Below are positions 15,434 through 18,400 of a stretch of 64,000 nt of DNA, in pieces; positions within the stretch are counted from its first letter, which is position 1, and every line of letters begins with the position of its first letter. Source of the stretch: Eledone cirrhosa. Taxonomy: Eukaryota. The translations under genes were made by a program, and so were the position numbers. The stretch lies in assembly GCA_964016885.1 (NCBI GenBank), contig OZ024740.1, positions 281,790,001 through 281,854,000 of the forward strand. The letters run 5' to 3'. The notes under the pieces are model-generated. The model did not search any database and was not told where the DNA came from. It saw only the letters and a list, made by a program, of their open reading frames with translations.

Positions 15434-18400
15434 GGAAAAAATGAAACGATATTTCATTTCCCACTCTTAGTACGGCTGTTACTTAAATATAAGTATGTAC
15501 ACGTACATACATATATGTATACCGACGTACAGTAGTATGTATATATATATATATACATACATGCACACATATATATATGCACGTATGGATTCACCGAACA
15601 TTTATTATAATGCTCGGTGTGTTTGTAAACAAACATCCCGTATTAAGCCGTAGTGTCTAGCAACCACCGTTGCTCGTTTGTTCAACACTGACAAAGGAAC
15701 GCTGTACTAGTTTCAAGCTTGTTAGCTATCGTCAGCAACGTATACCTTCCTGCCAGATTGTTGAACGTATATACTTACCTTATGCATATTAACGGCTGAG
15801 TAGCCCAATATGCATATCGAGTGGGTTAATCGGCCGGGTGCACCGAAAACGATAAACGGAAAAAATGAAACGATATTTCATTTCCCACTCTTAGTACGGC
15901 TGTTACTTAAATATAAGTATGTACACGTACATACATATATGTATACCGACGTACAGTAGTATGTATATATATATATATACATACATGCACACATATATAT
16001 ATGCACGTATGGATTCACCGAACATTTATTATAATGCTCGGTGTGTTTGTAAACAAACATCCCGTATTAAGCCGTAGTGTCTAGCAACCACCGTTGCTCG
16101 TTTGTTCAACACTGACAAAGGAACGCTGTACTAGTTTCAAGCTTGTTAGCTATCGTCAGCAACGTATACCTTCCTGCCAGATTGTTGAACGTATATACTT
16201 ACCTTATGCATATTAACGGCTGAGTAGCCCAATATGCATATCGAGTGGGTTAATCGGCCGGGTGCACCGAAAACGATAAACGGAAAAAATGAAACGATAT
16301 TTCATTTCCCACTCTTAGTACGGCTGTTACTTAAATATAAGTATGTACACGTACATACATATATGTATACCGACGTACAGTAGTATGTATATATATATAT
16401 ATACATACATGCACACATATATATATGCACGTATGGATTCACCGAACATTTATTATAATGCTCGGTGTGTTTGTAAACAAACATCCCGTATTAAGCCGTA
16501 GTGTCTAGCAACCACCGTTGCTCGTTTGTTCAACACTGACAAAGGAACGCTGTACTAGTTTCAAGCTTGTTAGCTATCGTCAGCAACGTATACCTTCCTG
16601 CCAGATTGTTGAACGTATATACTTACCTTATGCATATTAACGGCTGAGTAGCCCAATATGCATATCGAGTGGGTTAATCGGCCGGGTGCACCGAAAACGA
16701 TAAACGGAAAAAATGAAACGATATTTCATTTCCCACTCTTAGTACGGCTGTTACTTAAATATAAGTATGTACACGTACATACATATATGTATACCGACGT
16801 ACAGTAGTATGTATATATATATATATACATACATGCACACATATATATATGCACGTATGGATTCACCGAACATTTATTATAATGCTCGGTGTGTTTGTAA
16901 ACAAACATCCCGTATTAAGCCGTAGTGTCTAGCAACCACCGTTGCTCGTTTGTTCAACACTGACAAAGGAACGCTGTACTAGTTTCAAGCTTGTTAGCTA
17001 TCGTCAGCAACGTATACCTTCCTGCCAGATTGTTGAACGTATATACTTACCTTATGCATATTAACGGCTGAGTAGCCCAATATGCATATCGAGTGGGTTA
17101 ATCGGCCGGGTGCACCGAAAACGATAAACGGAAAAAATGAAACGATATTTCATTTCCCACTCTTAGTACGGCTGTTACTTAAATATAAGTATGTACACGT
17201 ACATACATATATGTATACCGACGTACAGTAGTATGTATATATATATATATACATACATGCACACATATATATATGCACGTATGGATTCACCGAACATTTA
17301 TTATAATGCTCGGTGTGTTTGTAAACAAACATCCCGTATTAAGCCGTAGTGTCTAGCAACCACCGTTGCTCGTTTGTTCAACACTGACAAAGGAACGCTG
17401 TACTAGTTTCAAGCTTGTTAGCTATCGTCAGCAACGTATACCTTCCTGCCAGATTGTTGAACGTATATACTTACCTTATGCATATTAACGGCTGAGTAGC
17501 CCAATATGCATATCGAGTGGGTTAATCGGCCGGGTGCACCGAAAACGATAAACGGAAAAAATGAAACGATATTTCATTTCCCACTCTTAGTACGGCTGTT
17601 ACTTAAATATAAGTATGTACACGTACATACATATATGTATACCGACGTACAGTAGTATGTATATATATATATATACATACATGCACACATATATATATGC
17701 ACGTATGGATTCACCGAACATTTATTATAATGCTCGGTGTGTTTGTAAACAAACATCCCGTATTAAGCCGTAGTGTCTAGCAACCACCGTTGCTCGTTTG
17801 TTCAACACTGACAAAGGAACGCTGTACTAGTTTCAAGCTTGTTAGCTATCGTCAGCAACGTATACCTTCCTGCCAGATTGTTGAACGTATATACTTACCT
17901 TATGCATATTAACGGCTGAGTAGCCCAATATGCATATCGAGTGGGTTAATCGGCCGGGTGCACCGAAAACGATAAACGGAAAAAATGAAACGATATTTCA
18001 TTTCCCACTCTTAGTACGGCTGTTACTTAAATATAAGTATGTACACGTACATACATATATGTATACCGACGTACAGTAGTATGTATATATATATATATAC
18101 ATACATGCACACATATATATATGCACGTATGGATTCACCGAACATTTATTATAATGCTCGGTGTGTTTGTAAACAAACATCCCGTATTAAGCCGTAGTGT
18201 CTAGCAACCACCGTTGCTCGTTTGTTCAACACTGACAAAGGAACGCTGTACTAGTTTCAAGCTTGTTAGCTATCGTCAGCAACGTATACCTTCCTGCCAG
18301 ATTGTTGAACGTATATACTTACCTTATGCATATTAACGGCTGAGTAGCCCAATATGCATATCGAGTGGGTTAATCGGCCGGGTGCACCGAAAACGATAAA

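What the first reader, a model, noticed from the sequence alone, without database searches (positions are those of the whole stretch)
15699..16165. Minimal stem III with ACUAGU palindrome suggests cleavage as a double hammerhead
Seen: between GAA and the cleavage site the sequence is only ACUAGU, i.e. 2 bp closed by a 2-nt loop, which is unstable in a monomer but is a perfect palindrome. Known: newt satellite and ASBVd hammerheads with such short stem III cleave as double hammerheads. Inference: adjacent units in a multimeric transcript pair via ACUAGU to cleave, while a released monomer circle resists re-cleavage, which would make the tandem arrangement functionally necessary.
Basis: partly seen in the sequence, partly recalled or inferred. 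Interest (0 to 1): 0.75.

Follow-up and report, generated by a model that had tools for sequence, protein, structure and literature searches.

The report
Octopus retrozyme with palindromic hammerhead stem
A 424-base repeat, present in over ten thousand copies in this octopus-type genome, carries a hammerhead RNA motif whose shortest stem is a palindrome, so neighbouring copies likely cut best as a pair; this mechanism is already published for such animal repeats, and cutting was not tested here.

Summary
Each of 8 identical 424-bp units has a type I hammerhead (CUGACGA…GAA-ACUAGU-A↓). The array belongs to a non-LTR retrozyme family with at least 14,387 genomic copies, in an octopod host. The palindrome alone is weak evidence: the core fixes AC…GU, so the chance is 1 in 4. 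Across hammerhead families in this genome, however, the 2-nt loop switches among TA, GC and AT (and CG). Eight non-palindromic loops give only 965 matches against more than 30,000, which supports inter-unit pairing. Strict necessity is not shown. The loop I/II contact motifs are kept, short-stem relatives cleave slowly as monomers, and two cuts need two units anyway. Insertions carry Penelope-type marks: two fixed 3' ends, (TA)n targets and one end type per inverted arm. This scan has noted those marks before in this genome. Copies do not pile up at the cut site. No RNA data were found. Verdict: new member of a known kind.

The parts
15428..19015 (-). Young retrozyme array, 8.5 x 424 bp, 8 hammerheads; 3' end at unit position 277, 5' end truncated at unit position 82
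15699..15741 (-). Downstream type I hammerhead: stem I 15736-15741 with 15699-15704; core CUGACGA 15729-15735; stem II 15715-15728 (U.U + 3 bp, loop UAACAA); GAA 15712-15714
15706..15711 (-). ACUAGU palindrome = stem III/loop III; A17 at 15705, predicted cut between 15705 and 15704
16123..16165 (-). Upstream hammerhead, identical; palindrome 16130-16135, predicted cut between 16129 and 16128
15705..16128 (-). Predicted 424-nt monomer between two cut sites; strongly self-paired (z -8.6 for the same unit in a 2-nt-shifted register); its two ends form an extended stem I
15428..15484 (-). About 56-nt 'tail' between the two preferred 3' ends (unit positions ~221 and ~277), inferred reverse-transcription start sites
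   Evidence: compared with PMC11167929
15392..15430 (.). (TA)n target abutting the 3' end
19015..21033 (.). (TA)n-rich tract abutting the truncated 5' end
1..2589 (.). Older, decayed insertion of the same family: 4 minus-strand hammerheads (one with a broken core) joined to an inverted plus-strand arm ending at the 277 site, plus one further arm

Best explanation
This is a non-coding tandem repeat of the animal retrozyme class, with a type I hammerhead motif in each 424-bp unit on the minus strand; multimeric transcripts are predicted to cut mainly as a double hammerhead, in which neighbouring ACUAGU palindromes would form a 6-bp stem III, and the released monomer is likely ligated to a circle that a Penelope-like enzyme likely copies back into (TA)n repeats. 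Shown here: the array, the motif, covariation in stems I and II, palindromic loops across families, copy number and insertion anatomy. Inferred: transcription by read-through, cleavage, dimer preference, ligation by a host ligase, circular template and the mobilising enzyme class. In the double fold the inner unit pairs its own two ends, which is the fold of the circle, with the ends placed for ligation. A closed monomer has no partner in cis and is predicted to misfold (loop UAG on core CUG), so it should re-cleave slowly. The pair is most likely an accelerator rather than an absolute requirement.
For: Loop III across the genome: the pattern with loop V-B gives 20,360 matches (control 248), and all of the first 100 are palindromic (93 GC, 4 AT, 3 CG). 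TA: 11,995 in this family and 95 of the first 100 of 10,428 matches dominated by a sister family. Loops RR give 540 (control 177) and YY 425 (control 65), mostly single changes of palindromic families. Stem I of 4 bp or more was confirmed for TA, GC and AT examples. Subfamily-level changes occur in stem I and loop II but not in the palindrome (113 copies; contigs of three runs). Energies: palindrome duplex -4.8 against +0.9 kcal/mol for a natural variant; double fold -183.8 against -176.5 for two singles. Axolotl relatives cleave poorly as monomers and well as dimers (PMC7229834). Insertions: 146 of 177 arm 3' ends lie at two sites; of 58 inverted pairs 40 have one arm of each end type, 0 have two alike, and 18 have a damaged end. 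This matches the two RT start sites and tail of Penelope-like elements (PMC11167929; PMC8557442). An intact 808-aa Penelope-like ORF with the same target exists in the genome. No arm starts at the cut site (0 of 127 at positions 1-9; about 0.2% genome-wide, the background rate), so the templates are continuous across it.
Against: No cleavage or expression data. The unconstrained two-unit fold (-190.1) is an inactive, unswapped structure 6 kcal/mol below the double hammerhead, which also needs an exchange of long stem I strands. The folding model ignores core and tertiary contacts. Loop II (UAAYAA) and the stem I bulge are kept across three families, and such contacts let newt monomers cleave. 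Coral and mussel retrozymes cleave as monomers. Within the family no compensatory loop sub-lineage was seen: 1 of the first 100 of 151 variants was a double change to another loop and none was palindromic. Lack of stops at the cut site fits uncleaved multimers as templates equally well; in the anole element cleavage is dispensable and protein-assisted. One array shows local block duplication rather than rolling-circle copying (L045). The intact Penelope-like element shares no detectable sequence with the repeat.
Confidence: 0.62

Rival explanations
1. Each hammerhead cleaves mainly on its own, braced by loop I/II tertiary contacts and perhaps by the Penelope protein. The palindrome gives only a minor boost or is inherited from ancestral elements, and the circle is protected by protein or by its fold.
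For: Conserved loop II and stem I bulge. Local stem I folds first. Newt monomer cleavage (review passage). Invertebrate retrozymes are reported to cleave as monomers. Protein-assisted cleavage in an anole Penelope element. PMC7229834 argues that circles are blocked in vivo by some other mechanism.
Against: It does not explain why unrelated families keep complementary loop letters in three or four different states while non-palindromic loops stay near 1,000. Stem III here is the amphibian-like minimal form and stem II is also weak.
Confidence: 0.25
2. Cleavage is rare or dispensable. Arrays spread by Penelope-type copying of uncleaved multimeric transcripts and grow by local duplication; circles play little part.
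For: No excess of copies starting at the cut site. Unprocessed RNA is the main substrate in vitro for an anole element. 8 of 9 Xenopus dimers did not cleave in vitro. Block duplication in L045.
Against: The core is invariant among subfamilies and the stems change in compensating ways, which implies selection for an active fold in the copies that spread.
Confidence: 0.1
3. An ordinary satellite with a chance hammerhead-like string.
For: No Rfam hit. The local 76-nt fold is not better than shuffles (z -0.85).
Against: Complete core, covarying stems, dispersed copies with retrotransposition ends, and several independent families with the same design.
Confidence: 0.03

Closest known systems
Animal non-LTR retrozymes (Cervera and de la Peña 2020, PMC7229834, parts 2-4 of 6 read; Li, Clavereau and Pollet 2026, bioRxiv 10.64898/2026.07.22.740005, parts 1-3 of 5 read)
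   Same: Tandem non-coding repeats of 150-450 bp, low GC, one type I hammerhead per unit, highly self-paired monomer, thousands of copies, Penelope-like elements in the same genome.
   Different: The host is an octopod; octopus and cephalopod have 0 occurrences in PMC7229834. Expression and circles were not shown here. Fixed paired ends and (TA)n targeting are not described in the parts read.
Axolotl HHR_Amex1 and HHR_Amex2; newt satellite 2 (PMC7229834; review PMC6155905, passages)
   Same: Amex1 has one base pair plus a palindromic tetraloop, the same geometry as A-CUAG-U. Amex2 has a U.U mismatch at the base of stem II. Both cleave poorly as monomers and well as dimers.
   Different: This motif combines both weak features, has a GUA triplet, and sits in an invertebrate, where a stable helix III and monomer cleavage are reported as the rule (PMC7761336 passage).
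Dimeric hammerhead model for metazoan type I motifs (PMC4209133, passages; PMC3088659 Fig. S8 legend; Forster et al. 1988, seen only as cited)
   Same: A short palindromic helix III, dimeric cleavage in tandem repeats and avoidance of cleavage in monomeric circles are all stated there.
   Different: Nothing in principle; this genome adds a large natural series of alternative palindromes.
Penelope-like element insertion mechanism (PMC11167929, parts 1-2 of 4 read; PMC8557442, passages)
   Same: Two internal RT start sites separated by a tail, AT-rich or (TA)n targets, 5' truncation and an inverted partner copy.
   Different: The repeat encodes no protein; its tail is about 56 nt rather than 30-40; inverted arms use one start site each.

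Membership tests
Type I hammerhead ribozyme | Core CUGAnGA, GAAA and NUH in order, with stem I open | tested here: met
   GUA triplet; AUA and GUA occur in natural hammerheads (PMC1636495 abstract)
Type I hammerhead ribozyme | Stems I and II supported by compensatory change | tested here: met
   (5 related sequences; 6 of 15 pairs change on both sides)
Type I hammerhead ribozyme | G10.1-C11.1 pair | tested here: not met
   U.U here; a published tolerated variant; the sister family has G-C
Type I hammerhead ribozyme | Site-specific self-cleavage | not testable with these tools
   needs an in vitro assay
Double (dimeric) hammerhead | Stem III too short for a monomer and self-complementary | tested here: met
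   cross-family loop counts
Double (dimeric) hammerhead | Dimer cleaves much faster than monomer; compensatory rescue | not testable with these tools
   energies only, and they are mixed
Non-LTR retrozyme | Tandem 150-450 bp units, each with a type I hammerhead, no ORF, many dispersed copies | tested here: met
   no frame of 120 aa or more lies within the array, and two microsatellite frames only overlap its 5' edge
Non-LTR retrozyme | Highly self-paired monomer | tested here: met
   z -8.56, 0 of 100 shuffles; partly owed to AT hairpins
Non-LTR retrozyme | Expressed as linear and circular monomers | tested here: inconclusive
   no RNA holder listed
Penelope-mobilised element | Two fixed 3' ends (tail), 5' truncation, inverted partner, microsatellite target | tested here: met
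   109 of 146 fixed ends flanked by alternating AT, against 6 of 31 other ends
Penelope-mobilised element | Sequence homology to the pLTR of an autonomous partner | tested here: inconclusive
   none against the one intact family examined, 10 loci; other families not examined

The most novel reading that the evidence does not exclude
Octopods carry tens of thousands of retrozyme hammerheads that form a natural compensatory series of stem III palindromes (ACUAGU, ACGCGU, ACAUGU, ACCGGU). This marks double-hammerhead cleavage as an obligate switch in an invertebrate: multimers cut, the monomer circle cannot, and that circle is the template that a Penelope enzyme primes from two fixed sites at both ends of a (TA)n break. 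Different palindromes would also keep families from cutting one another.
Probability: 0.35. Interest if true: 0.55.

Novelty: new member of a known kind. Interest (0 to 1): 0.3.

Why it matters
The mechanism is in print, so a specialist would not be surprised. What this genome adds is comparative support at scale: the loop letters covary between families, which a single sequence cannot show. It also gives a young, identical array and natural loop variants for a clean monomer-versus-dimer test. The fixed paired ends define the RNA template and the start sites for testing Penelope-driven copying of a retrozyme circle, which has been proposed but not shown.

Tried and rejected
Rfam at gathering and E-value thresholds: no hammerhead hit, only AT-hairpin noise. 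DNA search of the own genome with a 71-bp query returned nothing, because very common words are skipped; patterns were used instead. Sequencing runs: no RNA holder listed; the three guessed RNA runs matched only the AT-rich hairpin. A plus-strand hammerhead within the array: none. Compensatory loop changes inside the family: none in the first 100 of 151. Excess of copies starting at the cut site as a sign of in vivo cleavage: not found. 86 of 6,009 copies lack A17; of 30 examined, 24 continue as hammerheads, 3 are clean truncations and 3 are other rearrangements. Shared private variants between the two arms of one insertion: arms are closer than the median in 26 of 30 but in the closest 5% in only 8 of 30, so one template for both arms is not established. 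A dimeric circle as the origin of the ABAB array L045 was rejected in favour of local duplication. Pfam did not recognise the 808-aa Penelope-like ORF; the assignment rests on a weak GIY-YIG hit in a window fragment and on motifs read by eye (recalled). The protein atlas gave no answer. Two primary newt papers are not held. The supplement of PMC7229834 could not be read and may show similar motifs. A text search of the PMC3088659 supplements found nothing. The CG-loop and several AT-loop hits lack a directly adjoining stem I, so they count as weaker examples. Loops CA and TG were not counted genome-wide.

Full report
What is there. Window 15428-19015 holds 8.5 copies of a 424-bp unit between (TA)n tracts; the 8 full units are identical. 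On the minus strand every unit has a complete type I hammerhead motif: stem I, CUGACGA, stem II (U.U plus 3 bp, loop UAACAA), GAA, ACUAGU, A17 and the predicted cut. The finding spans two adjacent motifs, with palindromes at 15706-15711 and 16130-16135. Rfam misses the motif. The unit folds far better than shuffles (z -8.56). A neighbouring intronless gene is closest to Octopus (75%) and Argonauta (66%) proteins, so the host is an octopod.

The family. The core-plus-stem-II pattern matches 14,387 places, control 0; 11,995 continue with the intact palindrome and flank. In 113 aligned copies, frequent variants occur at stem I (G1.3.U2.3 replaced by U-A or U.G) and in loop II, but not in the core or the palindrome. 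Contigs of three public runs show the same. A sister family of about 466 bp, 66% alike in its middle, has different but paired stems I and II and the same ACUAGU. On five sequences, 6 of 15 pairs change on both sides; slid controls give 0-1.

Is the palindrome selected? In one family it is a 1-in-4 event, since the fold fixes AC and GU. Inside this family, 151 copies have the first loop base changed, and none of the first 100 restores a palindrome; that is neutral decay. The signal lies between families. With TA excluded by the pattern (loop V-B) there are 20,360 matches against 248 for the control, and all of the first 100 are palindromic: 93 GC (92 from a 310-bp family), 4 AT, 3 CG. Among 15 non-family hits in an earlier list, 10 had AT. 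Eight non-palindromic loops give 540 and 425 matches, controls 177 and 65, mostly single changes of palindromic families. CA and TG were not counted. Stem I of 4 bp or more was confirmed for TA, GC and AT examples but not for CG; two non-palindromic hits also had a 6-bp stem I. Complementarity of the two loop letters is expected if two units pair, and is not expected from stability of a lone hairpin (inference).

Energetics. The hexamer self-pairs at -4.8 kcal/mol; a natural single variant gives +0.9. In a two-unit transcript a forced double hammerhead is -183.8 and two forced singles -176.5, but the free minimum is -190.1, an inactive fold in which loop UAG pairs with core CUG. The same misfold dominates the circular monomer. 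The double fold needs the stem I strands to swap, so that the inner unit pairs its own ends as it would in the circle. These numbers omit core and tertiary contacts.

Insertion anatomy. In 102 non-redundant sequences (101 loci and the window), 177 of 185 arms had a visible 3' end: 79 at unit positions 263-278, 67 at 208-226 and 31 elsewhere; 109 of the 146 fixed ends abut alternating AT. Of 58 head-to-head pairs, 40 have one arm of each type, none has two alike, 18 have a damaged end, and no tail-to-tail pair was seen. One of the 40 is probably alignment noise and one is a duplicate. The sister family ends at the homologous sites. This matches the two internal RT start sites and tail of Penelope-like elements (PMC11167929) and their inverted, microsatellite-targeted insertions (PMC8557442). 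An intact 808-aa Penelope-like family with near-identical copies and (TA)n targets is present, but shares no detectable sequence with the repeat. Earlier notes of this scan report the same signature in this genome; I had measured it before reading them.

Templates are continuous across the ribozyme. No arm of 127 starts at unit positions 1-9; the mean stop rate is 0.2% per base. Genome-wide, 86 of 6,009 copies lack A17, and 3 of 30 examined are true truncations, which extrapolates to about 0.2%. This fits circles that stay closed, and also uncleaved multimers. Of 176 complete arms, 152 have one or no junction and 24 have two or more (long arrays running off a locus were left out). Arrays can also grow by local duplication (L045).

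What is known. PMC4209133 (passages) says that most metazoan type I hammerheads have a 1-2 bp helix III with a small palindromic loop, fold as dimers in tandem repeats, and that this is thought to avoid cleavage in monomeric circles. PMC3088659 (passages) lists such palindromes and the U10.1-U11.1 variant. PMC7229834 (parts 2-4 of 6) shows axolotl monomers cleaving 6% and 22% in an hour and dimers much better, coral and mussel monomers cleaving well, and circles in tissue. A review passage reports newt monomer cleavage through extended helix I. A 2026 preprint links animal retrozymes to Penelope elements by co-occurrence and phylogeny (parts 1-3 of 5). A search for 'hammerhead ribozyme' with 'octopus' listed 4 papers, none on octopus retrozymes by title or abstract start. 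Supplements I could not see (bioRxiv files) may hold related motifs.

Verdict. The dimer reading is likely right as the preferred mode (about 0.6), but it is published and its necessity is unproven. Circle protection is plausible and untested. This is a new member of a known kind; interest 0.3.

Noticed in passing
window 14856-15288: Small (TA)n-inserted element with inverted arms and a tail on one end. It has a hammerhead-like motif at 15044 (minus) with a long stem II and a quasi-palindromic AUAUGUAU stem III. A relative lies at 5735-5882, and many more in fetched loci.
   Followed up: partly
window 2757 (minus) and 5250 (plus): Two head-to-head copies of another hammerhead motif with U.U-based stem II and a stable 4-bp stem III with an 8-nt loop, which could cleave as a monomer.
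   Followed up: no
G000:C1:5738326-5752444 (L090-L110): Sister retrozyme family of 466-470 bp, about 10,000 hammerheads, arrays of 30 or more units, same two 3' ends; some copies insert in (CAT)n.
   Followed up: partly
G000:C1:1239857-1244284 (L181): 310-bp family with an ACGCGU palindrome in two-armed arrays; it dominates the 20,360 matches.
   Followed up: partly
L171:2459-4882 (G000:C3): Intact 808-aa Penelope-like ORF (RT, cysteine linker, C-terminal GIY-YIG by eye), copies about 99% alike, two 3' ends about 170 nt apart. No CUGAnGA core in its 3' region; Pfam gives no hit.
   Followed up: partly
window 7176-7568, 27729-29246: Broken Penelope-like RT and GIY-YIG fragments.
   Followed up: partly
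window 21163-25885: Broken Tx1/L1-like non-LTR retrotransposon with a zf-RVT domain.
   Followed up: no
window 39238-41382 (minus): Intronless asteroid/ASTE1-like nuclease gene, 714-aa frame.
   Followed up: partly
L045: A-B-A'-B-A' array best explained by duplication of a two-unit block after insertion; higher-order periods are also visible in the lists.
   Followed up: yes
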